Origin: a virus
Lineage: Duplodnaviria > Heunggongvirae > Uroviricota > Caudoviricetes
Virus record (IMG/VR): IMGVR_UViG_2974563859_000001
Strand: one strand, 5' to 3'
DNA length: 23,152 nucleotides
Made by a program: the position numbers and the translations under genes. The notes beneath the pieces are model-generated. The model was not told where the DNA came from, did not search any database, and worked only from the letters and a program-made list of their open reading frames with translations. Below, piece after piece: positions 4,285 to 20,373 of this stretch (positions within the stretch are counted from its first letter, which is position 1; each line of letters opens with the position of its first letter).

Positions 4285-4998
4285 TTATGTTAGTTTAGTT
4301 AGTAGGATTCTAAATCCATTTACACTAACAGGGGAATATTGAATACTAGTTATATTTTTATCTGGAAATTGGTTTCTTATATAACTCTCAGTTTCTTCAT
4401 TTTCAGGTATAGCAAAATAATCCAAAATGGAGTTATCACTATTTTCAAATGTTATAAAAGCACCATATAATTTATACTCAAATCCTTCTATTCCATGAGT
4501 TTTCTTATATTCAGTAATTATCTTATCGGATATTCCCATTGTTTCTAAAGCAGTTAATATCATTTTTTCAGAAAGATCACCAAGTTTATCAATACTCTTT
4601 AATCTTTTCTTACTCATATAATCTATTAATTTACTTAGATTATCTAAACCATTCCGTCTTAATAAGTTAAACGTTCTTAAATCTAGTAAATCTTTATCAA
4701 TTTGATATGTTAAATTTTTCTTTCTTTTACCTTCTTGTATTTCTTCATTTTTACATTTTTCAAATGCTGTCCATACTAACTGATTTACTCTTGCTGATGA
4801 TAGATTTACGATCTGTCCTACTTCTTCATTAGAAAGTATTCTATCTCCACCAAATTTTATAATTACTGTCTGTAATTCATTATTCGTAATCACATCTTTG
4901 TTTCTTTTAAAGAATTTAATTACATCCTCTAATTCATAATTGATTCCAAAGTATTCTATTATTTCCTTGTCAATATTTCTTCTCTCTTTTCGTACCAA
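4285..4998 (-). CDS. sigma-70 region 4 HTH fused to an RNA polymerase alpha-CTD-like domain
   Basis: aa ~37-83 ITNNELQTVIIKFG..SNEEVG..LSSARVNQLVWTAFEK parallels sigma4 (LTAREAKVLRMRFG..TLEEVG..VTRERIRQIEAKALRK); aa ~100-155 LDLRTFNLLRRNGL..LKSIDKLGDLSEKMI parallels alpha-CTD; TTG start with SD AAAGGAG. Confidence 0.75.
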   Translation of the reverse strand: MVRKERRNIDKEIIEYFGINYELEDVIKFFKRNKDVITNNELQTVIIKFGGDRILSNEEVGQIVNLSSARVNQLVWTAFEKCKNEEIQEGKRKKNLTYQIDKDLLDLRTFNLLRRNGLDNLSKLIDYMSKKRLKSIDKLGDLSEKMILTALETMGISDKIITEYKKTHGIEGFEYKLYGAFITFENSDNSILDYFAIPENEETESYIRNQFPDKNITSIQYSPVSVNGFRILLTKLT

Positions 4999-5026
4999 TG
5001 ACTTTCTCTCCTTTCACTCTTTCTCA

Positions 5027-5039
5027 TATATAATATATA
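5027..5039 (-). promoter_or_regulatory. putative early (virion RNAP) promoter motif TATATATTATATA
   Basis: Identical 13-mer recurs at 20476-20488, in both cases upstream of minus-strand non-structural genes; contains TATATTAT, similar to the phiKZ early core TATATTAC. Confidence 0.5.
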
Positions 5040-5066
5040 CTTAGTTTTATATTTTAATACGGTACA

Positions 5067-5078
5067 AACATTCTATTA
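5067..5078 (+). promoter_or_regulatory. AR9-type late promoter motif for terL
   Basis: AACATTCTATTA, 27 nt before ATG 5105. Confidence 0.75.
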
Positions 5079-5104
5079 ATATATCATAATAGGAGGTTGA
5101 TTAA

Positions 5105-5707
5105 ATGTATGATTATTCTACTAGAAACCTAAGTTTTATTAAGATCTGGAAGTTTCTAAAAGATCAAGGTATAAAAAATAATAAATTCTTTTTAAAATTG
5201 AATGATGAAACATTACAAGGTGTTGATCCATATGATCCAAATTTAACTGATGAACAAAAGGTAAGAATACAGGTTGAAGTAATGACTAACTTTTGGTATT
5301 TCTTGAGGGAAGTAGTGCGAATTCCTGAATCGGGTGGTTCTATTCATTTCATGCTACACAGAGCTAATCTTGGTCAAATGTTTCTTATGGAAAATAATAT
5401 TGATATGATTGAGATACTACCTCGTCAGAATGGAAAAACAATTGGGGCTGTATGTCGATATATATGGGTATATCATTGGGCTACCAAAAATACTCATATG
5501 ATTTTTAGTAATAAACAATACGCCGATTCCCAATTAAATATTAAACGTTTCAATGATATAACAGAATTATTACCAAGTTATTTAAAAACGCATTTAGATC
5601 CTAAAAAAGATACAAATAACTTAGCTCAAATTTCATGTGCAAAGAATAATAATAAAATTGATGCAATGAGTACTGCTAGGACTGTTACTGACGCTGACAA
5701 ACTGGGT
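5105..5707 (+). CDS. terL: terL exon 1 (N-terminal ATPase, Walker A)
   Basis: PRQNGKT; reading frame stops at the TAA that forms the first three bases of intron 1. Confidence 0.9.
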
Positions 5708-8306
5708 TAACTAACTATGGCTCAGTATAAACTCCTTTAATTTCTGGAACGTCCTTCCAAGGATAATCAGAAGCTAAGACTTTTAAAAGTAAAGTTCAAC
5801 GACTATCGAAACCGACTTATCAGATCGTTGTGATAACGCTAGATAGGGATAAGGGAGTAGAGTAGAATACAAGCTATAGGTATTCAAAAAGGGGAGCGCC
5901 GTATTTAGGTGAAGATATAGTCTCATCTCTATGGTAACATAGAGCAGTTCATAAGAGAACGGTATAGGCGTAGCGAACCTATATGAAGGTAACTTGCGTG
6001 GTTGTACAGTACCAATTATATGGTTAAATTTTTAGCCCATTATAATAGTGATATTATAATGAATCCTTCTTAACTGCTGGAACATCCTTTTAGGACAATC
6101 AGCATCCAAGCATTGTTATATAAATAACAATGAAGGTTCAACGACTATCGAAACCGACTTATCAGATCGTTGTGATAATGCTAGATAAGGATAAGGGAGT
6201 AGAGTACAACTCAAGCGATTGGAGTTGGAAATGGAAGGCATCTCAATGAGATGAAGATATAGTCTCATCTTCATGGTAACATGGAGCAGTTCATAAGAGA
6301 ACGGTATAGGCGTAGCGAATCTATATGAAGATAAATGATGATGAATTTGCATTTTTAAAATATAATGATACGGTATACGCTAAACTGGTGTAACTGGCGT
6401 ATTAAAACTCTCTTAACTGCTGGAAACTCCTAAAGTCTTTAGTACCAAAGTGTAATAATCTAAAGGATATATGGACAATCAGCATCCAAGCATTGTTATA
6501 AATAACAATGAAGGTTCAACGACTATCGAAAAATATAATTTGTATTATATTGAGTAGAGTACTTTCAAGCGAAAGGAAAAGGAGAGCATGATGAAGGTAT
6601 TAAATACTGGAGTGAAGATATAGTCTCATCTCTATGGAAACATAGAGCAGTTCATAAGAGAACGCATTAGACGTAGCGAATCTAATGGAAGGTAATTATG
6701 AGTGCTGCACCAGCACTATCAAAAGCATCAGAAGCCGCACAGCGTAATGGTACTCCTTACGGAAAATTAATTACAACAACTCCTAAACTATTGGGCAATA
6801 CATTAGTAATAATGTAATTGAATCTTCCTTAATTGCTGGAAAATCCTATATGGACAATCAGCATCCAAGCATTGTTGTTTATAACAATGAAGGTTCAACG
6901 ACTATCGAAACCACTCTAACAGATCGTTGTGATAACGCTAGTTAGAAGGAAGGGAGTAGAGTACAACCTAAGTGATTGAGGTTGGAAAAGGGAAGCATCT
7001 CAATGAGATGAAGATATAGTCTCATCTTCATGGTAACATGGAGCAGTTCATAAGAGAACGCATTAGATGTAGCGAATCTAATGGAAGATAAATGAATGAT
7101 CTTGATACAGAAATGGGTAAATATTGTAAGGGTATGATTGATGATGCATGTCCATTTGATGAAGCTTGGTATGATTGGGATATTGATGAAATTAAAAAAT
7201 ATATTGAACAGAACTCTCGAAATGACTTTGTTTATTTAGTATTTAATTATAAAGAGTTAGGACATGATGAGAAATGGTATCAAAAACAATGTCGTCAGCT
7301 CAATAATGACTTATTAAAAATTAAACGTGAAATATTATTGGAATGGACATTGGCTAACGATACTTCGCCTTTTTCAGAGGAACAATTAGCAGAAATTGGA
7401 CAACATGCAGGTGAACCTATTGGTAAGTTTTATGTAATGAAAAGATATAAATTTGAAATTTTCAGTGAAATGCGAAATATATTTAAAAAATCATGGCTAA
7501 TCGGTATAGATATTGGAGCAGGTTTGAATCGAGATTTTACAGTGATATCTATTATTGATCCTAAAGATATGGTTCAAAAAGCAGTATTTAGAAGTAATAA
7601 TATATCTTTACCTGATTTAAAAGATTTGGTTATACACCTAGTATTAGAATTTTGTCCTAATGGTGTCATTATTCCAGAACGAAATAACTTAGGTATCTCT
7701 TTAATACAAGATCTACTACGTTCAGAAGTAGCTAATAACTTATATTATGAAGTTAGAGAAGTAAAAGGAGAAAAGAAAGTTGATGATCCAAAAAGATCAT
7801 CTAAAAAGACAGTTAAGACTAAAACAAGAGTTTATGGGGTTACTACTAGTAAAGATAGTCGGGATATAATGATCAATGAGATTCTTAGTAATGCAGTTAA
7901 TGATACTCCATATGTGTTTACAAGTAAATATATTTTTGAAGAATTAAGAACATTAGAAAGAAATAAGAAAGGAAAGATTGAGCATAGGGATGGAGGTCAT
8001 GATGATACATTATTCTCATGGCTAGTGGCATGCTATGCTTTCTTATATGGAAATAATATAAATAAATTTGTTAAAGTCATCAGTGATGGCGATAATAATG
8101 AGAATGAAGAAAATAATAAAGATAGAGCTAGAAACATTCATGCATTGTCTAAAATTAATAGTGGTGAAAAATCACAGAGTGAAATATTATTAGAAATGTA
8201 TAAGAATGAAAGTAGATTTTTTGAAGATCATAATGAGAATGATAATAATATTAGAAAGCAAAAAAGAATGAAAAGCCTAAATTTTATTACTAGTTTAAAT
8301 AGATAA
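5105..8306 (+). CDS. terL: terminase large subunit, spliced from 5 exons: join(5105..5707,5997..6024,6338..6381,6701..6784,7095..8306), 656 aa
   Basis: Exon lengths 603+28+44+84+1212 = 1971 nt, in frame. Spliced protein: Walker A PRQNGKT, junction region KLG|RGCTVPIIW(Y)DEFAFLKYNDTVYA|SAAPALSKA..LITTTP|NDLD, nuclease motifs GIDIGAG and HDDTLFS. Confidence 0.92.
5708..5996 (+). mobile_element. group I intron 1 of terL (IA-like, no ORF, 289 nt)
   Basis: 5' splice after U; P1 ACTGGGT/GCTCAGT(5720-5726) with terminal U-G; P10 TAACTATG(5712-5719) pairs exon 2; core TTCAACGACTA and GAAGATATAGTC (P7 GACTA/TAGTC); GTAA tetraloop hairpin; ends in G. Confidence 0.93.
5997..6024 (+). CDS. terL: terL micro-exon 2 (28 nt; RGCTVPIIW plus 1 nt)
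   Basis: Supplies the hydrophobic strand preceding the Walker B acidic pair. Confidence 0.85.
6025..6337 (+). mobile_element. group I intron 2 of terL (IA-like, no ORF, 313 nt, phase 1)
   Basis: Core elements TTAACTGCTGGAA, AATCAGCA, TTCAACGACTA, GAAGATATAGTC; imperfect P1 with GCCCATTATAAT; terminal G; removal creates the Tyr codon T|AT of WYDEF. Confidence 0.93.
6338..6381 (+). CDS. terL: terL micro-exon 3 (44 nt; Walker B DEFAFLKYNDTVYA)
   Basis: Encodes the catalytic DE of Walker B. Confidence 0.85.
6382..6700 (+). mobile_element. group I intron 3 of terL (IA-like, no ORF, 319 nt)
   Basis: P1 ATACGCT/GGCGTAT with U-G; CTGGTG pairs CACCAG in exon 4; same core elements; GAAA tetraloop hairpin; terminal G 6700. 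Confidence 0.93.
6701..6784 (+). CDS. terL: terL micro-exon 4 (84 nt; SAAPALSKASEAAQRNGTPYGKLITTTP)
   Basis: Ends with the motif III (coupling) sequence TTTP. Confidence 0.85.
6785..7094 (+). mobile_element. group I intron 4 of terL (IA-like, no ORF, 310 nt)
   Basis: Core TTAATTGCTGGAA, AATCAGCA, TTCAACGACTA, GAAGATATAGTC; short guide TATTGGG; terminal G 7094; in-frame join TTTP|NDLD. Confidence 0.92.
7095..8306 (+). CDS. terL: terL exon 5 (ATPase lid and RNase H-like nuclease domain)
   Basis: GIDIGAG..DFT, ERNNLG, HDDTLFS; the track's ATG at 7092 is the last three bases of intron 4. Confidence 0.9.
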   Translation, partial: NDLDTEMGKYCKGMIDDACPFDEAWYDWDIDEIKKYIEQNSRNDFVYLVFNYKELGHDEKWYQKQCRQLNNDLLKIKREILLEWTLANDTSPFSEEQLAEIGQHAGEPIGKFYVMKRYKFEIFSEMRNIFKKSWLIGIDIGAGLNRDFTVISIIDPKDMVQKAVFRSNNISLPDLKDLVIHLVLEFCPNGVIIPERNNLGISLIQDLLRSEVANNLYYEVREVKGEKKVDDPKRSSKKTVKTKTRVYGVTTSKDSRDIMINEILSNAVNDTPYVFTSKYIFEELRTLERNKKGKIEHRDGGHDDTLFSWLVACYAFLYGNNINKFVKVISDGDNNENEENNKDRARNIHALSKINSGEKSQSEILLEMYKNESRFFEDHNENDNNIRKQKRMKSLNFITSLNR

Positions 8307-8309
8307 ATG

Positions 8310-8342
8310 AAAGAATGTAGATGAAAATCTACATTCTTTTTT
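8310..8342 (+). terminator. intrinsic terminator after terL
   Basis: AAAGAATGTAGAT-GAAA-ATCTACATTCTTT followed by a T-run. Confidence 0.85.
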
Positions 8343-8360
8343 ATATTGAAGAGAATTACT

Positions 8361-8372
8361 AACAAATTCATA
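8361..8372 (+). promoter_or_regulatory. AR9-type late promoter motif
   Basis: AACAAATTCATA, 44 nt before ATG 8416. Confidence 0.7.
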
Positions 8373-8415
8373 TGAATTTAATTAAAATTAGTTGACATAT
8401 ATAGGAGGAAGTCTA

Positions 8416-10823: not shown

Positions 10824-13787
10824 ATGGCTACTGAAGCTAGTACATCACAATCAATTTCTACTGGTACTGAAGTAAGTCCTACTTGGTTACACCCAAGCGT
10901 TACAAGTGTAATCAATAGTGAAGAGATCACTTATCAAAGTGGCTCTGGACAACAAAAAATGCTTTCTATCTTTACTTCTGAAAAAGGTGAAGATAATAAA
11001 CTAGTACTATATACTGATCCTGATGAATTTATTGCCAAAACTGGTAATCCAAATCTTAAAAAATATGGTCAATCAGCTTATAACATCATTAACTGGTTAA
11101 AGGCTGGTGGTGAAGTTTATGGTATGCGTGTAATGCCTGATAATGCAGGTTTTGCTCATGCATTCTTAAATGTTCTTTCTAAAGTTGATACTAAAAAAGT
11201 CAAGGATAAGGACGGTAATGCTGTTTCCTATAAAAATGTTACATTGAAACCAGCAGTTGCTTATTCAGATGTAAATAATGTATCTGAAACACTATTAAAT
11301 TATGAATTAAATAAAGATAGATCATCTGATGAGACTATTGATGGATTTAAGAATCACTTATTATTTGCAGTCTATCCTACAGGACGAGGAAGTGCATATA
11401 ATAACTTGGGATTCCGAATCACTCTAAATACTTCTTATGATGAACAACACGATTTCCGTGTTTATAACTTTGAAGTAATTAGATATGATGAATATAATAC
11501 CGCTAATATTATTGAAGGACCATTTTACGTATCTTTGAGTCCAGATGCTCTTTCTTCATCTAATGAAAGTATGTTTATTGAGGATGTAGTTAATAAATAT
11601 TCTACTCATTTAAGATGTATGTTTAATGAAGATGCTTTCCTTGATCTTTGTCGTACTATTAATCCAGATGTTTCTCCATCTAAGATTGATCCACTAACAG
11701 GTAAGACAAGAACTGTTCGAGGTGTAGTTGATACTTTCTATAGTAACATTACTAAGAAATTTGAAGATACACATATTTCTTTACACCGCTATGATACTAA
11801 TGGAAATGTTATGACTGATTCTAACGATAATCCAATCTTGAATATTATTGATGCTGGTGATCTAATTGAGCAATCAATTCTATTGGCAGATAACACTTAT
11901 CGTAAACGTATGTATGAAAGATATCTTGCTGGTATCGATTATATGAAACAAGTGTTCAATAGTATTGAGAATAATGATTATAATACAATCATTACTAAAT
12001 TGCTTTATACTCCTGATGGTGTAACTCCTGAATCTGGTTTAATCCCAGAAATGGTTGAAAAGCTAAATGGTTATCATACTACTATTCAAAACCTTGTAAC
12101 AGTATTTAATAGTAGTCATTTAGAATCAGATTTCAATCGGATTGTCACTGAGAATACTCTTGTTGAACAAGGCATTAAAGATATTATGAGTCTGATTGGT
12201 CAACTTCTAAGTTATCATAAAGCATTAGAAATGAGTTCAACAGTTCTTGATCTAGATGAGAAAGTTAATTCTGTTTACAATAAGTTAAATCTTAAAGAGA
12301 TTATTGATATCCGTGCAGTTTCTAAAAAAGATAAGATTAATGAAATTTCTGACACTATTCTTACTTTAAAAGGAACTGGTGATGAAGATGAACAAGCAAG
12401 TGCTTTAACCTCTATTCTTTCTGATGTTAAAACAACTATTGATTATCTTCTTATGATCATCAATGAAAATTCTCTATCTGCTACAGATATTAACCAAGCA
12501 GTAACTCGTTATAATGCAATCATTGATATGTATAATGCTATCTTTGATCCAATTGTATCTAATGATGCGGCTAAAACTATTCTTGCTAATATTTATAACA
12601 GTCTAGATGAATTAGTTGCAGATCTTTATAATATTTGTGAACTTGCTATCGTTAATATTGATTTACTTATTATTGATGATATTATTAGTAAGAAAATTGC
12701 AAATATTGTATCTGGTATTGTTCCTGTAACATATACTAATACTGAATTGTATGCACAAAAGGTTTCTACAACAGAAGGAAAAGCTGAACTATTATCTAGT
12801 ATTCGTAAGAATATTGATAACTCTACAGCTGTTGTAACTGTGATGAAATCTATTGTTTATACTACTCAGCTTCAAGACTTTAATTCCCCTGCCATTTTTA
12901 TGAATGGTAGTGATGGTGATCTTGATGAAAGTAATCCTTCACTTAAGAGTAAGACTATGTTAAGTCTTCTAGTTAAAGGATATCAAGGATTAATTGATGA
13001 TAGTGTTACTAATCGTAGAGTTGCCCCTTTCCAATTTGTATTAGATGCTAATTATCCAACGGATGTTAAGAATGCAATTGTTACATTAGCAAGAGATATC
13101 CGTAAAGATATTTTCTTCTATGCGGATTCTGGTATTCAAGCTAGTCCAGCAGATGCTATTAGTTGGAGAAATGCTTCTTTCAATGTATCTTCCCAATTCC
13201 TTGGAATTTATACTCAAGACTTCGTAGTTTATGATGAGTATAATGGAAGAGATATTAAAGTAACACCAACTTATTTCTTGGCTACTAAGATTCCTAGTGT
13301 TGCATCTCAATATGGATTACAATATCCAATTGCAGGTAACAAACGTGGTACAATTGATGGATTTAAGTCTATTAGTTATGTACCAAATGAATCCTATAAG
13401 GAACAATTATATACTCGTCAATTGAACTATGTAGAACATGATAGTAAACGTACTAAGTTTGGCAGTCAATTAACAGCTGATATGCAAAGAACTCCATTAT
13501 CTAATATCAATAACGCTATCATTGCTCTTGATATTAAACGTAATGTTGAGGAAATGGCTGAAGATTATCAATTCGAGTTTGAAGATGATGAAACTATCAG
13601 AACATTCCAGTACAATCTTAATGATTATCTATCTACCTACATTTCTAATAGAAGTTGTGATGAAATTTCTGCAACCGTATATGCATCTGATTATGATAAA
13701 ACTCAACAGATTCTTCGTGTTAAAATCACAGTTAAGTTTAAAGCGGTTGTTGAACGCATCGTAATTAGTATTGATGTAGTTAAGTAA
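10824..13787 (+). CDS. contractile tail sheath protein
   Basis: 987 aa; N-terminal HPSVTSVI and GNPNLKKYGQ, NGSDG, FVLDANYP, YPIAGNKRG, and C-terminal sheath strand ILRVKITVKFKAVVERIVISIDV; followed by tube gene. Confidence 0.88.
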   Translation: MATEASTSQSISTGTEVSPTWLHPSVTSVINSEEITYQSGSGQQKMLSIFTSEKGEDNKLVLYTDPDEFIAKTGNPNLKKYGQSAYNIINWLKAGGEVYGMRVMPDNAGFAHAFLNVLSKVDTKKVKDKDGNAVSYKNVTLKPAVAYSDVNNVSETLLNYELNKDRSSDETIDGFKNHLLFAVYPTGRGSAYNNLGFRITLNTSYDEQHDFRVYNFEVIRYDEYNTANIIEGPFYVSLSPDALSSSNESMFIEDVVNKYSTHLRCMFNEDAFLDLCRTINPDVSPSKIDPLTGKTRTVRGVVDTFYSNITKKFEDTHISLHRYDTNGNVMTDSNDNPILNIIDAGDLIEQSILLADNTYRKRMYERYLAGIDYMKQVFNSIENNDYNTIITKLLYTPDGVTPESGLIPEMVEKLNGYHTTIQNLVTVFNSSHLESDFNRIVTENTLVEQGIKDIMSLIGQLLSYHKALEMSSTVLDLDEKVNSVYNKLNLKEIIDIRAVSKKDKINEISDTILTLKGTGDEDEQASALTSILSDVKTTIDYLLMIINENSLSATDINQAVTRYNAIIDMYNAIFDPIVSNDAAKTILANIYNSLDELVADLYNICELAIVNIDLLIIDDIISKKIANIVSGIVPVTYTNTELYAQKVSTTEGKAELLSSIRKNIDNSTAVVTVMKSIVYTTQLQDFNSPAIFMNGSDGDLDESNPSLKSKTMLSLLVKGYQGLIDDSVTNRRVAPFQFVLDANYPTDVKNAIVTLARDIRKDIFFYADSGIQASPADAISWRNASFNVSSQFLGIYTQDFVVYDEYNGRDIKVTPTYFLATKIPSVASQYGLQYPIAGNKRGTIDGFKSISYVPNESYKEQLYTRQLNYVEHDSKRTKFGSQLTADMQRTPLSNINNAIIALDIKRNVEEMAEDYQFEFEDDETIRTFQYNLNDYLSTYISNRSCDEISATVYASDYDKTQQILRVKITVKFKAVVERIVISIDVVK

Positions 13788-18708: not shown

Positions 18709-20373
18709 TTAAGATACTTGTAATTGTTTTTGCTGTTTTAATTTTTGAATTAAATCACTTGTTGTTGGCAAATTATGCCATTTATTACCAAAATTAATAT
18801 AGTCCTTACTTGAATAATCATCAACATATTCTTTTGATATATCATTGCCATCTTCTTCAATAATGACTCTTCCATAACATGTTTCAGGAGAGATATTAAA
18901 TGCTTGAATAATTGATGGATATAGAGAGCTTAAATCAAAGTCGATACAATTCTCAAATAGGAATTTAGATTTTTCCCCTAATAACTCAATACCAATATTA
19001 TCAATATTATTTGGATTAGCTACAAACGCACCTTTAATTTTTCCCTCAGTTTGCTCTCTAATTTTTGCTCTATTATTAGAGATATAAACTCCTTTTTCAC
19101 GATAGAATTTAGAAGCAAGATTTCGTAAACAAATTGTTTTCTTCATTGCTTTCTCAATACGTGTTTCAGTTAACATTGCTACTGAATAGATTGCATCAAC
19201 ATCTCTATTCTTTTCTTCCATCATCATCATCATAACAGTATCTTGAATATTATAAAACATAAATTTCTTATAATCGGTAATATGGAAAGTTTTAAATCCT
19301 TCTTCCATTACATCTTTTGTTAGACCTACTTCTTTTTCCCCAATATAGTCCAAACTATAAGACTCTTCTTTACCCATACCTTTTCTTAAGTTAGCATAGA
19401 GGTTCATTGCATCTAGATATACTGAATAAGATGTAACATTCATTTCATTACCATTATCAGATGGATCTTGGTTAAATGTATCTTTTCTATAGCTAACTCT
19501 CTTATATTTAAATTCTTTTGGACACATAATATCTTCTGGATTATATCCTAATCTCATAATTCTATTCATTAAATAAGGATTATCGAATCCATGTCCATTC
19601 CAAGCTAATACAAAATCAGGTTTAATTTCAATATTAATAAGATCGTAGAATCGTTTTATCATATGAATCTCACTTTCCCATTCTTCAATGATAAAATTCA
19701 TCTTTCTACCTTTTAAGATCTTTTTATATCTTTCTTCTAGTTCACTCTTAATACTATCTAGGTTACTCATTGTTTCTACATAAGTATCATGATTATATTT
19801 TAAGCAAAGTGTATAACAATTAAGATTATCCATATCAATAAGTGTCATAATATTTACTGGTGCTTCAGCTTCTTCTGGTTCAGGGAATCCAACAATTTTC
19901 TCAATATCAACCTCTATATCGTATACCACTTTAGTTAAACCGAAGTTATTTTTATCGACTGGGTGTTTCTTTAAAAATTGAGAAATATAATAATCTTGAA
20001 TGTTTACATCTGAACCATGTAAACGATAGTCTAAATGAATTCGATTTAATTTCTTTCCAATTCCATAGCCGCCAGATTTTATTGTATCCCAGAAATAATT
20101 TGTAAGATTCTGATCATTTAATGTAGTGATAATTGACTTATATAAATCTTTCGCATAACATTTGATTGGAAGTACCTTATCTTTTTCAATGTAGTTTCTT
20201 AGTTTTCCATCCCAATATTGTGGTTTTGTAATGTAATATTCAATGACTGGTTTTTCAATTGTTTCACAACGCTTATTACCATTTTCATCTTTAACAATAA
20301 ATAGTACCTTATCAAAACCATCTTTACTTTTTCTATCTGGATAAAAATAATGTGTGTTAATCATCTGAACCAT
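18709..20373 (-). CDS. family B DNA polymerase, N-terminal subunit of a split enzyme (proofreading exonuclease plus motif A)
   Basis: ExoI YDIEVD, ExoII AWNGHGFDNPY, ExoIII YNIQD, motif A DFDLSSLYPSII; stops about 70 aa later without motif B or DTDS. Confidence 0.85.
   Translation of the reverse strand: MVQMINTHYFYPDRKSKDGFDKVLFIVKDENGNKRCETIEKPVIEYYITKPQYWDGKLRNYIEKDKVLPIKCYAKDLYKSIITTLNDQNLTNYFWDTIKSGGYGIGKKLNRIHLDYRLHGSDVNIQDYYISQFLKKHPVDKNNFGLTKVVYDIEVDIEKIVGFPEPEEAEAPVNIMTLIDMDNLNCYTLCLKYNHDTYVETMSNLDSIKSELEERYKKILKGRKMNFIIEEWESEIHMIKRFYDLINIEIKPDFVLAWNGHGFDNPYLMNRIMRLGYNPEDIMCPKEFKYKRVSYRKDTFNQDPSDNGNEMNVTSYSVYLDAMNLYANLRKGMGKEESYSLDYIGEKEVGLTKDVMEEGFKTFHITDYKKFMFYNIQDTVMMMMMEEKNRDVDAIYSVAMLTETRIEKAMKKTICLRNLASKFYREKGVYISNNRAKIREQTEGKIKGAFVANPNNIDNIGIELLGEKSKFLFENCIDFDLSSLYPSIIQAFNISPETCYGRVIIEEDGNDISKEYVDDYSSKDYINFGNKWHNLPTTSDLIQKLKQQKQLQVS

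What the first reader, a model, noticed from the sequence alone, without database searches (positions are those of the whole stretch)
5708..7094. Four tandem group I introns and three micro-exons build the terminase ATPase active site
Seen: 1231 of these 1387 nt are intron; exons are 28, 44 and 84 nt. Insertions fall at KLG|RG, inside the Tyr codon of Walker B (W-Y|DE), at YA|SAAP and right after motif III TTTP. Each intron has P1 U-G, P7 GACTA/TAGTC and a terminal G, and each puts a stop in frame within 11 codons, so all four must splice for packaging. Established: single terL introns and closely spaced multiple introns (Twort) are known in Gram-positive phages; I cannot tell whether this four-intron terL is described. 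Inference: a serial ribozyme gate on DNA packaging that gene callers would annotate as two broken fragments.
Basis: partly seen in the sequence, partly recalled or inferred. Interest (0 to 1): 0.88.

Follow-up and report, generated by a model that had tools for sequence, protein, structure and literature searches.

The report
Four self-splicing introns in phage terminase

Summary
Rfam finds four full-length group I introns (72-93 bits): 5708-5996, 6025-6337, 6382-6700 and 6785-7094. They are separated by exons of 28, 44 and 84 nt.

Joining the five exons gives a 1971-nt, 656-aa TerL. It is collinear, with no gaps and 2 aa differences, with the uninterrupted terL of Bacillus phage Goe21 (about 99% nt identity), and collinear with 29 full-length homologues. 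Profile alignment to T4 gp17 places the insertion sites at G|RG, in the codon before the Walker B Asp-Glu, 12 residues after that Glu, and right after the C-motif TTT-P.

The window is most likely PBS1. AR9's public TerL protein (653 aa) is already a spliced product with the same first three junctions. Its fourth junction drops the conserved 'TTP', probably a 9-nt annotation slip.

Points I did not see stated in the papers I could read:
- Alleles exist with 0, 1 and 4 introns.
- Relatives carry homing-endonuclease-bearing orthologues at sites 1, 3 and 4.
- Synonymous differences cluster at the sites (19 of 33; P about 5e-12), and one flank resembles an intron-bearing donor.

All this fits selfish introns that have lost their endonuclease genes. 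The 'ribozyme gate' is true only as logic; regulation is unsupported. The scan has seen similar multi-intron terL genes in other jumbo phages. No RNA data could be consulted.

The parts
5105..5707 (+). terL exon 1 (aa 1-201). Contains Walker A (PRQNGKT) and ends ...KLG.
   Evidence: ORF. PHROG terminase large subunit phrog_32359, E 3e-123. Walker A aligns to T4 gp17 161-167.
5708..5996 (+). Group I intron 1 (289 nt, no ORF). Begins with an in-frame TAA and ends in G.
   Evidence: RF00028 82.3 bits. 9-bp P1 with U.G at the splice site. Absent from Goe21 and SRR547798 alleles. An orthologous endonuclease-bearing intron sits at the same site in L007.
5997..6024 (+). Micro-exon 2 (28 nt): RGCTVPIIW plus the first base of the Tyr codon.
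   Evidence: Collinear with Goe21 and 29 homologues. 7 of 28 nt differ synonymously from Goe21.
6025..6337 (+). Group I intron 2 (313 nt, no ORF), phase 1, in the codon before the Walker B Asp-Glu.
   Evidence: RF00028 93.5 bits. P1 and P2 predicted. Absent from Goe21 and SRR547798 alleles.
6338..6381 (+). Micro-exon 3 (44 nt): completes Tyr, then DEFAFLKYNDTVYA (Walker B D212, catalytic E213).
   Evidence: D212-E213 align to gp17 D255-E256.
6382..6700 (+). Group I intron 3 (319 nt, no intact ORF).
   Evidence: RF00028 72.0 bits. 8-bp P1. Absent from Goe21. Present in the SRR547798 allele, where the contig shows the start of an endonuclease-like ORF.
6504..6557 (+). Probable remnant of the 3' end of a homing-endonuclease ORF inside intron 3 (...STTIEKYNLYYIE, then stop), overlapping the P7 5' strand.
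   Evidence: Weak tblastn match to the C-terminus of the L005 intron ORF (E 0.09). The overlapping DNA 6515-6572 is 83% identical to the L005 intron (E 1e-11).
6701..6784 (+). Micro-exon 4 (84 nt): SAAP...KLITTTP, ending with the C-motif (motif III) TTT-P.
   Evidence: TTTP aligns to gp17 T285-T287 and P288.
6785..7094 (+). Group I intron 4 (310 nt, no ORF).
   Evidence: RF00028 85.2 bits. 5-bp P1 (CCU|AA with UUGGG) including U.G. Absent from Goe21 and SRR547798 alleles. An orthologous endonuclease-bearing intron sits at the same site in L005.
7095..8306 (+). terL exon 5 (aa 254-656 plus stop): rest of the ATPase domain and the nuclease domain.
   Evidence: Profile match to the gp17 nuclease domain. 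AlphaFold model of the near-identical Goe21 protein has T4 gp17 as its top Foldseek hit, E 6e-22.

Best explanation
The single terL gene of this AR9/PBS1-type Bacillus jumbo phage is interrupted by four paralogous, ORF-less group I introns of phage type. Each has a large insertion between P7 and P3', which from my own knowledge of group I classification I read as the P7.1/P7.2 extension of subgroup IA; this was not tested. The four introns lie within 156 nt of coding sequence, in the best-conserved ATPase motifs.

Each intron must excise itself from the pre-mRNA by the standard mechanism: guanosine attacks after the U of the P1 U.G pair, then the exons are ligated after the terminal G. The result is an mRNA for a normal 656-aa TerL.

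The introns are selfish mobile elements. They descend from, or are mobilised by, relatives that carry a homing-endonuclease gene at the same sites. They entered this lineage by homing or recombination, dragging short stretches of donor exon with them, and have since lost the endonuclease ORF. They are tolerated because they splice, not because the phage needs them.

Shown here: intron identity, exact junctions, collinearity, presence/absence polymorphism, endonuclease-bearing orthologues, and clustered synonymous changes.
Inferred: actual splicing in vivo, the homing history, and the lack of benefit.
For: Intron identity:
- Four full-model RF00028 hits at 72-93 bits.
- U.G in P1 and a terminal G in all four.
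- The four introns are paralogues with an invariant core, and their P8 and P9-region helices differ by what I read off the alignment as compensatory changes.

The spliced product is a real TerL:
- It is collinear with the uninterrupted Goe21 terL, with 2 aa differences, and with 29 full-length homologues without indels at the sites.
- Profile alignment matches T4 gp17 motifs and the predicted fold matches gp17.
- terL is single-copy in the sister genome Internexus.

The introns are dispensable and sporadic:
- Goe21 has 0 terL introns. The SRR547798 contigs L003/L004 have only intron 3.
- Internexus has 16 RF00028 hits above cut-off, Goe21 has 1.

Mobile relatives occupy the same sites:
- L007 has a 1156-nt intron at site 1 with the same P1 guide sequence (GGCTCAGT) and a 280-aa ORF.
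- L005 has a roughly 1.2-kb intron at site 4 with a 271-aa ORF.
- Both ORFs hit phrog_559 and phrog_9084, annotated HNH or homing endonuclease, at E 1e-22 to 3e-58.
- The intron 3 copy in L003 shows the start of a related ORF.
- Many metagenomic C-terminal fragments start at aa 254, 226 or 202/203, just after sites 4, 3 and 1.

Co-conversion signature:
- 19 of 33 PBS1-Goe21 differences lie in mRNA 590-770, all synonymous, binomial P 4.5e-12.
- The base at -1 is U in PBS1 and A in Goe21 at sites 1 and 4. With the Goe21 exon, P1 of intron 1 is not formed.
- mRNA 598-631 of PBS1 is 94% identical to L007, against 76-80% in the flanks and 73.5% for Goe21.
- Between PBS1 and Internexus the micro-exons are identical and the introns differ by 0-1.6%, while exon 1 differs by 4.15%.
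Against: No RNA evidence for splicing was available to me.

No endonuclease ORF is present in any of the four PBS1 introns, so current mobility is unproven.

The clustered synonymous changes could partly reflect selection for P1 pairing after insertion and not co-conversion. The site-4 donor signal rests on only 25 nt.

L003 and L004 are short Logan contigs from a run whose library type I could not check. Their Goe21-type flanking codons do argue for a DNA allele and against a spliced RNA.

A fitness benefit, such as immunity of occupied sites to a co-infecting phage's endonuclease, is not excluded.
Confidence: 0.85

Rival explanations
1. Regulatory gate or 'on-switch'. The four ribozymes make TerL synthesis depend on serial splicing, and hence on GTP/Mg2+ or RNA-folding conditions. 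This would delay or tune DNA packaging late in infection.
For: All four introns place an in-frame stop within 11 codons, so unspliced RNA cannot yield TerL. Group I splicing needs guanosine. A 'molecular on-switch' hypothesis for introns in rNDP reductase, polymerase and terminase genes has been published for Bastillevirinae, together with time-dependent splicing in vivo (PMC11878797).
Against: Goe21, about 99% identical in terL, has no terL introns, and another allele has only one. Intron numbers and positions vary freely among relatives. The flanks carry a homing-type signature. Nothing in the sequence distinguishes these introns from ordinary phage introns.
Confidence: 0.06
2. Competitive or protective role. 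Occupied sites make terL immune to homing endonucleases of co-infecting relatives, or trans-acting endonucleases of the same phage cut intron-less rivals. On this reading the cluster is kept because it helps in mixed infections.
For: Endonuclease-bearing orthologues exist at sites 1, 3 and 4 in related phages. One of them, at site 3, is in a terL allele about 99% identical to PBS1. An intron endonuclease has been shown to mediate interference competition in jumbo phage PhiPA3 (PMC11620839, seen in abstract only). Trans-homing of a defunct-endonuclease intron by free-standing mobE is known in T4 (PMC2790892, seen in abstract only).
Against: No endonuclease gene lies in or beside the four PBS1 introns, and the window encodes no homologue of the relatives' intron ORFs except a 17-aa remnant. 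Immunity by occupancy is a by-product of any homing system and needs no selection on the phage.
Confidence: 0.12
3. terL here is a decaying pseudogene or an assembly artefact, and the repeats are not functional introns.
For: Public annotations show only fragments. The four repeats are 76-87% alike over their shared blocks and lie in tandem, which could suggest duplication artefacts.
Against: The same arrangement is found in the independently sequenced Internexus genome. All ribozyme core elements and all exon codons are intact, and the spliced ORF has no stop. The phages of the matching records are deposited as isolates with named hosts, and terL is single-copy in Internexus.
Confidence: 0.01

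Closest known systems
TerL of Bacillus phage AR9 (AMS01205.1 / YP_009283025.1, 653 aa; genome paper Lavysh et al. 2016, Virology 495:185, PMID 27236306, which I could not read)
   Same: It sits in the same 90%-identity protein cluster. Its sequence runs straight across junctions 1-3 exactly as predicted here, so it must be a conceptual splice of the same exons. Other papers state that AR9 has multiple introns and that it has a gene repertoire disrupted by introns similar to one that includes the large terminase.
   Different: The AR9 product lacks 'TTP' at junction 4 (…KLIT|NDLD…). These residues are kept in the intron-less Goe21 gene; T251, T252 and P253 are invariant in 30 homologues; and they align to the gp17 C-motif. 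The U.G rule also puts the splice 9 nt further downstream. I could not see AR9's DNA or its join coordinates. AR9 also differs from the window product at 2 residues.
Group I introns in terL of Bastillevirinae Bacillus phages (NAR 2025, PMC11878797)
   Same: The terL genes are split by up to two or three group I introns. Intron ORFs of PHROG 559 (Vsr-type fold, annotated 'HNH endonuclease') occur specifically in terL introns. Splicing was shown in vitro and in vivo. Small internal exons occur and one is skipped in SIOphi terL. An 'on-switch' hypothesis is proposed.
   Different: A different phage group and a different TerL family (phrog_675 versus phrog_2/32359). At most three introns. The PBS1 introns carry no ORF.
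Staphylococcus phage Twort orf142 (three group I introns; Landthaler & Shub 1999, PNAS 96:7005, PMC22036; known to me from the title and from its citation)
   Same: Several closely spaced, related group I introns in one phage late gene, with short internal exons. Exon skipping by the ribozymes was reported.
   Different: A structural gene and not terL. Three introns, not four. A different phage family.
[quoted passage not shown]
   Same: AR9-related jumbo phages with TerL 37-39% identical over the exon-5 part. terL is cut by several introns. In MarsHill the first one lies at the homologous site, …KAG|RG.
   Different: From my own reading of the MarsHill sequence, its introns are much smaller (very roughly 120-180 nt). 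The other MarsHill insertion sites differ, and there is none after TTTP. The authors could not reconstruct the mature TerL.
terL of 'Jug' gut jumbo phages (Sci Adv 2026, PMC12880540)
   Same: terL is split into 2-3 fragments by small group I introns. There are about 18 introns per genome. Splicing is supported by metatranscriptome reads.
   Different: Phages predicted to infect Bacteroides or Phocaeicola. Fewer terL introns.

Membership tests
Group I self-splicing intron (Rfam RF00028) | Match to the covariance model above the curated gathering score, covering P1-P9 | tested here: met
   Four hits at 72.0-93.5 bits (gathering 50), model positions 1-253 of 253.
Group I self-splicing intron (Rfam RF00028) | 5' splice site after a U that forms a U.G wobble pair in P1 with the internal guide sequence | tested here: met
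   All four exons end in U, which pairs with G in a locally predicted P1 of 5-9 bp. With the Goe21 exon at site 1, P1 is lost.
Group I self-splicing intron (Rfam RF00028) | Terminal G (omega-G) at the 3' end and conserved P7 (guanosine-binding) strands | tested here: met
   The introns end ...CTTG...AATG...TATG and ...AATG. The P7 strands are invariant in the four-way alignment.
Group I self-splicing intron (Rfam RF00028) | Precise removal restores an intact, collinear host gene | tested here: met
   The spliced ORF is 656 aa and aligns without gaps to the natural intron-less allele (Goe21) and to 29 homologues.
Group I self-splicing intron (Rfam RF00028) | Guanosine-dependent self-splicing of the RNA (in vitro or in vivo) | not testable with these tools
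The AR9 paper is not held.
Mobile (homing) group I intron | Intron-encoded homing endonuclease | tested here: not met
   None of the four PBS1 introns has an ORF longer than 47 aa on the + strand. Only a 17-aa remnant is present in intron 3. Orthologues at sites 1, 3 and 4 in relatives do carry such ORFs.
Mobile (homing) group I intron | Presence/absence polymorphism at the same site among close relatives | tested here: met
   Alleles with 4 introns (PBS1, Internexus), 1 (SRR547798) and 0 (Goe21), at 98-99% exon identity.
Mobile (homing) group I intron | Co-conversion of flanking exon sequence from the donor | tested here: inconclusive
   Synonymous differences cluster strongly at the sites (P 4.5e-12), and the site 1-2 flank is 94% identical to the intron-bearing L007. 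Selection for P1 pairing is an alternative explanation, and no experimental cross was done.
Large terminase (TerL), T4 gp17-like ASCE ATPase plus RNase H-like nuclease | Walker A, Walker B with catalytic Glu, C-motif, and nuclease-domain acidic residues, in gp17 order; TerL fold | tested here: met
   The family profile hits gp17 (3ezk, 3cpe) at E 1e-13. It aligns RQNGKT, hhhhDE and TTTP to gp17 161-167, 251-256 and 285-288. The AlphaFold model (pLDDT 84.6) has gp17 as its top Foldseek hit, E 6e-22. PHROG terminase families match. Pfam Terminase_6N is below its threshold (18.6 bits against 22).

The most novel reading that the evidence does not exclude
The tandem intron cluster is kept because serial self-splicing, sensitive to guanosine nucleotides, Mg2+ and co-transcriptional folding, and prone to exon skipping between near-identical neighbouring ribozymes, sets the timing or amount of TerL. 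It would then act as a true checkpoint on packaging in this uracil-DNA jumbo phage.
Probability: 0.06. Interest if true: 0.7.

Novelty: already known. Interest (0 to 1): 0.33.

Why it matters
This is a clean, well-supported example of how far selfish introns can crowd an essential gene. Four ribozymes sit within 156 coding nucleotides of an ATPase active site, and the exons between them are as short as 28 nt.

Practical value:
- It gives the correct 656-aa TerL for PBS1-type phages, whose records list only fragments.
- It flags a probable 9-nt error at the fourth junction of the AR9 product. This matters because TerL is the standard marker for phage phylogeny and packaging-type prediction.

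Scientific value: the natural series of 0-, 1- and 4-intron alleles at about 99% identity, together with endonuclease-bearing orthologues at the same sites, is a ready system in a laboratory host (B. subtilis). It could be used to measure homing, co-conversion, exon skipping and any fitness cost or benefit of tandem group I introns.

It does not reveal a new kind of element.

Tried and rejected

Literature and records:
- The AR9 genome paper (PMC13189113) and the J Virol version of Korn et al. (PMC8428398) are not held.
- The AR9 and PBS1 records are not in the phage collection.
- The AR9 TerL product is not on record as a called gene. Its join coordinates therefore could not be read, and the 'TTP' discrepancy remains an inference.
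- No whole genome is held for the window.

Weak or empty searches:
- Pfam on the separate exon-1 and exon-5 products found nothing. On the full-length protein it gave only a sub-threshold Terminase_6N.
- A single-sequence PDB search found nothing. A 30-sequence profile was needed.
- Rfam at gathering threshold found no intron in the relatives' loci. The endonuclease-bearing introns of L005 and L007 reach only 28 bits in E-value mode. Their intron nature therefore rests mainly on sequence homology of their ends to the PBS1 introns and on exact site identity.
- A PDB sequence search with the L007 intron ORF gave nothing.
- No DNA could be fetched for the P0046 contig.

Rejected readings:
- Pseudogene or assembly artefact (intact spliced ORF, independent genome).
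- Inteins or frameshifting (the intervening DNA is ribozyme and carries stops).
- Nested twintrons (the intron-less allele shows the micro-exons are coding).
Full report
**What is there.** The window is a structural/late region of an AR9/PBS1-type Bacillus jumbo phage (genus Takahashivirus).
- Around terL lie a major head protein (1295-2890), a phage RNA-polymerase-family protein (4285-4998, minus strand), a tail sheath (10824-13787) and a DNA polymerase (18709-20373, minus strand).
- Window 5000-8400 is 98.5% identical to Bacillus phage vB_BspM_Internexus and 98.9% identical over the matching parts to vB_BsuM-Goe21.
- The exact 404-aa exon-5 ORF is on public record on a 252,197-bp contig. The cluster's UniRef name refers to phage PBS1. 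Earlier notes of this scan also call this genome PBS1. I take the window to be PBS1.

**Check of the observation.** Rfam's group I model matches four times on the + strand, full length, at 82.3, 93.5, 72.0 and 85.2 bits against a gathering score of 50.
- Introns: 5708-5996, 6025-6337, 6382-6700 and 6785-7094 (289, 313, 319 and 310 nt; 1231 nt in all).
- Micro-exons: 5997-6024, 6338-6381 and 6701-6784 (28, 44 and 84 nt).
- Every number in the finding is right, including the phase-1 split of the Tyr codon and the in-frame stops at codons 1, 4, 4 and 11 of read-through.
- Each 5' exon ends in a U that pairs with G in a predicted P1 stem of 5-9 bp. Each intron ends in G.
- The four introns are paralogues. 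The core strands P3, P4, P6, P7, P8 and the P9 region are nearly invariant, and the P8 and P9-region helices differ by what I read as compensatory changes.

**The decisive test: an intron-less allele exists.** Goe21 carries an uninterrupted 1971-nt terL (L002:1606-3576, annotated only as 'hypothetical protein').
- The five window exons, joined at the coordinates above, give exactly 1971 nt / 656 aa.
- They align to Goe21 without a gap, with 33 nucleotide and 2 amino-acid differences (E312D, Y526H).
- Twenty-nine further full-length homologues (37-75% identity) are also collinear through the region, with no indel at any of the four sites.

**Where the introns sit in the protein.** A 30-sequence profile of the family hits T4 gp17 (3ezk, 3cpe) at E 1e-13. 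The alignment gives:

| Window motif | T4 gp17 equivalent |
|---|---|
| PRQNGKT | Walker A, 161-167 |
| GRG | R245-G246 (the first Gly of GRG falls at gp17 V244) |
| IIWY-DE | Walker B 251-255 and catalytic E256 |
| TTT-P | C-motif 285-287 plus P288 |

- An AlphaFold model of the Goe21 protein (pLDDT 84.6) has gp17 as its best Foldseek hit, E 6e-22.
- In the model the Walker B and C-motif segments are the expected beta-strands, 208-212 and 246-251.
- Site 1 lies between G201 and R202 of the invariant GRG.
- Site 2 lies inside codon 211, directly before D212-E213.
- Site 3 lies after A225.
- Site 4 lies after P253.
- G201, R202, G203, D212, E213, T251, T252 and P253 are invariant in all 30 sequences.
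- 'Build the ATPase active site' is a fair description. Calling GRG an arginine finger would be my inference only.

**Is it already known?** Yes, in substance.
- The same 90% protein cluster holds 'terminase large subunit [Bacillus phage AR9]' (AMS01205.1 / YP_009283025.1, 653 aa).
- Aligned to my spliced product, it runs straight through junctions 1, 2 and 3 exactly as predicted. It is therefore a conceptual translation of joined exons.
- Other papers say that AR9 has multiple introns (PMC5759034). They also say it has a repertoire of intron-disrupted genes similar to one that includes the large terminase (bioRxiv 10.1101/2020.12.14.422802).
- I could not open the AR9 paper itself.
- Multi-intron terL genes are further described for Bastillevirinae (two to three introns, PMC11878797), for the Staphylococcus MarsHill group and for gut 'Jug' phages (PMC12880540).

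**A discrepancy worth recording.** The AR9 product reads …KLIT|NDLD…, three residues (TTP) shorter than mine.
- TTTP is present in the intron-less Goe21 gene. T251, T252 and P253 are invariant in the family, and the motif equals the gp17 C-motif.
- The orthologous intron of L005 is inserted right after …ACAACAACGCCT.
- Only the site after CCU gives a U.G pair in P1.
The AR9 join is probably 9 nt short at the exon 4 end. I could not see AR9's DNA to exclude a real difference.

**What the relatives add: polymorphism.** Alleles differ in intron number at 98-99% exon identity.
- PBS1 and Internexus have four introns, with identical micro-exons.
- Goe21 has none.
- Two Logan contigs from run SRR547798 (L003, L004) together show a terL allele, about 99% identical, with only intron 3.
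- The exon codons of that allele around sites 1, 2 and 4 are of the Goe21 type. This argues that it is a DNA allele and not a spliced RNA of a PBS1-type gene.
- Genome-wide, Internexus has 21 RF00028 matches (16 above cut-off) and Goe21 has 5 (1 above cut-off).

**What the relatives add: endonuclease-bearing orthologues.**
- In L007 (a 260-kb contig, TerL 70-83% identical across its two exon blocks) the only interruption is a 1156-nt insert exactly at site 1. It has the same exon context and the same guide sequence (GGCTCAGT) as PBS1 intron 1, and a 280-aa ORF.
- In L005 (a 270-kb contig) the only interruption is about 1.2 kb exactly at site 4, with ends homologous to PBS1 intron 4 and a 271-aa ORF.
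- The two ORFs are 42% identical. Both hit PHROG families annotated as HNH or homing endonuclease (phrog_559, 3e-58 and 1e-48; phrog_9084). phrog_559 is the family reported in Bastillevirinae terL introns.
- The intron 3 copy in L003 carries the start of a related ORF.
- PBS1 intron 3 still holds what looks like the last 17 codons of such an ORF, overlapping P7 (6504-6557).
- Many metagenomic C-terminal fragments begin at residue 254, 226 or 202/203, just after sites 4, 3 and 1.
- MarsHill shares site 1 only.

**What the relatives add: footprints in the exons.**
- Of the 33 PBS1-Goe21 differences, 19 fall in mRNA 590-770. All are synonymous, and the binomial P is 4.5e-12.
- At sites 1 and 4 the base before the insertion point is U in PBS1 and A in Goe21. 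With Goe21's exon the P1 of intron 1 is not formed.
- The 34 nt spanning sites 1-2 are 94% identical between PBS1 and the intron-bearing L007. The neighbouring sequence is 76-80% identical, and Goe21 is 73.5% identical to L007 over the same 34 nt. A weaker signal of the same kind links site 4 to L005.
- Between PBS1 and Internexus the intron block has diverged by 0-1.6%, while exon 1 has diverged by 4.15%.
- Together this is what homing with co-conversion from diverged donors would leave. Selection for P1 pairing could contribute.

**How it most likely works.** The pre-mRNA must undergo four independent group I splicing reactions. Any failure leaves a stop codon.
- The introns are best read as selfish elements in the endonuclease-loss stage of the homing cycle. 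They may still be mobilised in trans.
- They target invariant active-site codons because those sites are conserved between phages and cannot tolerate imprecise deletion. That last reason is established reasoning in the field and is restated in PMC12908238.
- The 'serial gate' is logically true but has no support as a regulatory adaptation, since near-identical phages do without the introns.
- One risk specific to this arrangement is exon skipping between near-identical neighbouring ribozymes. It has been seen in Twort orf142 and in SIOphi terL. It is untested here.

**Verdict.** The feature is real and was read accurately, but it is already in the public record for the sister phage AR9. It is an ordinary, if extreme, example of a known kind.

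Noticed in passing
window 6776-6784 (last 9 nt of exon 4) versus protein P0070 (AR9 TerL): The public AR9 TerL product (653 aa) lacks the three residues TTP of the conserved C-motif at junction 4. This is probably a join misplaced by 9 nt and not a real difference.
   Followed up: partly
L003:1251-1586 and L004:1-59 (Logan contigs of SRR547798): A terL allele about 99% identical to the window has only intron 3. In that copy the contig shows the start of an endonuclease-like ORF (L003:1444-1584) in the region downstream of P6. Introns 1, 2 and 4 are absent and the flanking codons are of the Goe21 type.
   Followed up: partly
L007:3150-4305 and L005:3290-4503: Related jumbo-phage contigs each carry a single intron of about 1.2 kb in terL, at site 1 and site 4 respectively. 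Each has a 280- or 271-aa ORF of PHROG 559/9084 (homing endonuclease) that reads through the P7 strand of the ribozyme.
   Followed up: partly
window 6504-6557 (inside intron 3): A short frame ending ...STTIEKYNLYYIE plus stop resembles the C-terminal tail of the relatives' intron endonucleases. It is a likely remnant of a deleted endonuclease gene. Introns 1, 2 and 4 keep only the STTIE part, which is the P7 strand itself.
   Followed up: partly
records MW749003 (Internexus) and OM728297 (Goe21), whole genomes: Group I intron load differs sharply within one genus: 21 RF00028 matches (16 above cut-off) in Internexus against 5 (1 above cut-off) in Goe21, at nearly the same genome size.
   Followed up: no
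window 5105-7094 versus L001: Between PBS1 and Internexus, exon 1 has diverged by 4.15%, but the micro-exons are identical and the introns differ by 0-1.6%. This suggests the intron block was exchanged or homogenised more recently than its surroundings.
   Followed up: no
L008:4396-4990 (Staphylococcus phage MarsHill terL): MarsHill has its first mini-intron at the site homologous to PBS1 site 1 (…KAG|RG…). Its other introns lie at different positions and there is none after TTTP. The mature TerL that its authors could not reconstruct looks recoverable by alignment to the Goe21 protein.
   Followed up: partly
L002:1606-3576 (Goe21_01370): The only uninterrupted terL in this group is annotated merely as 'hypothetical protein'. 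The Internexus record lists a 31-aa ORF lying inside intron 4 as a hypothetical protein.
   Followed up: no
window 4285-4998 (minus strand): A divergently oriented 237-aa gene directly upstream of terL matches a PHROG annotated 'RNA polymerase' (phrog_28674, E 2e-163). It may be one of the phage's RNA polymerase-associated subunits.
   Followed up: no
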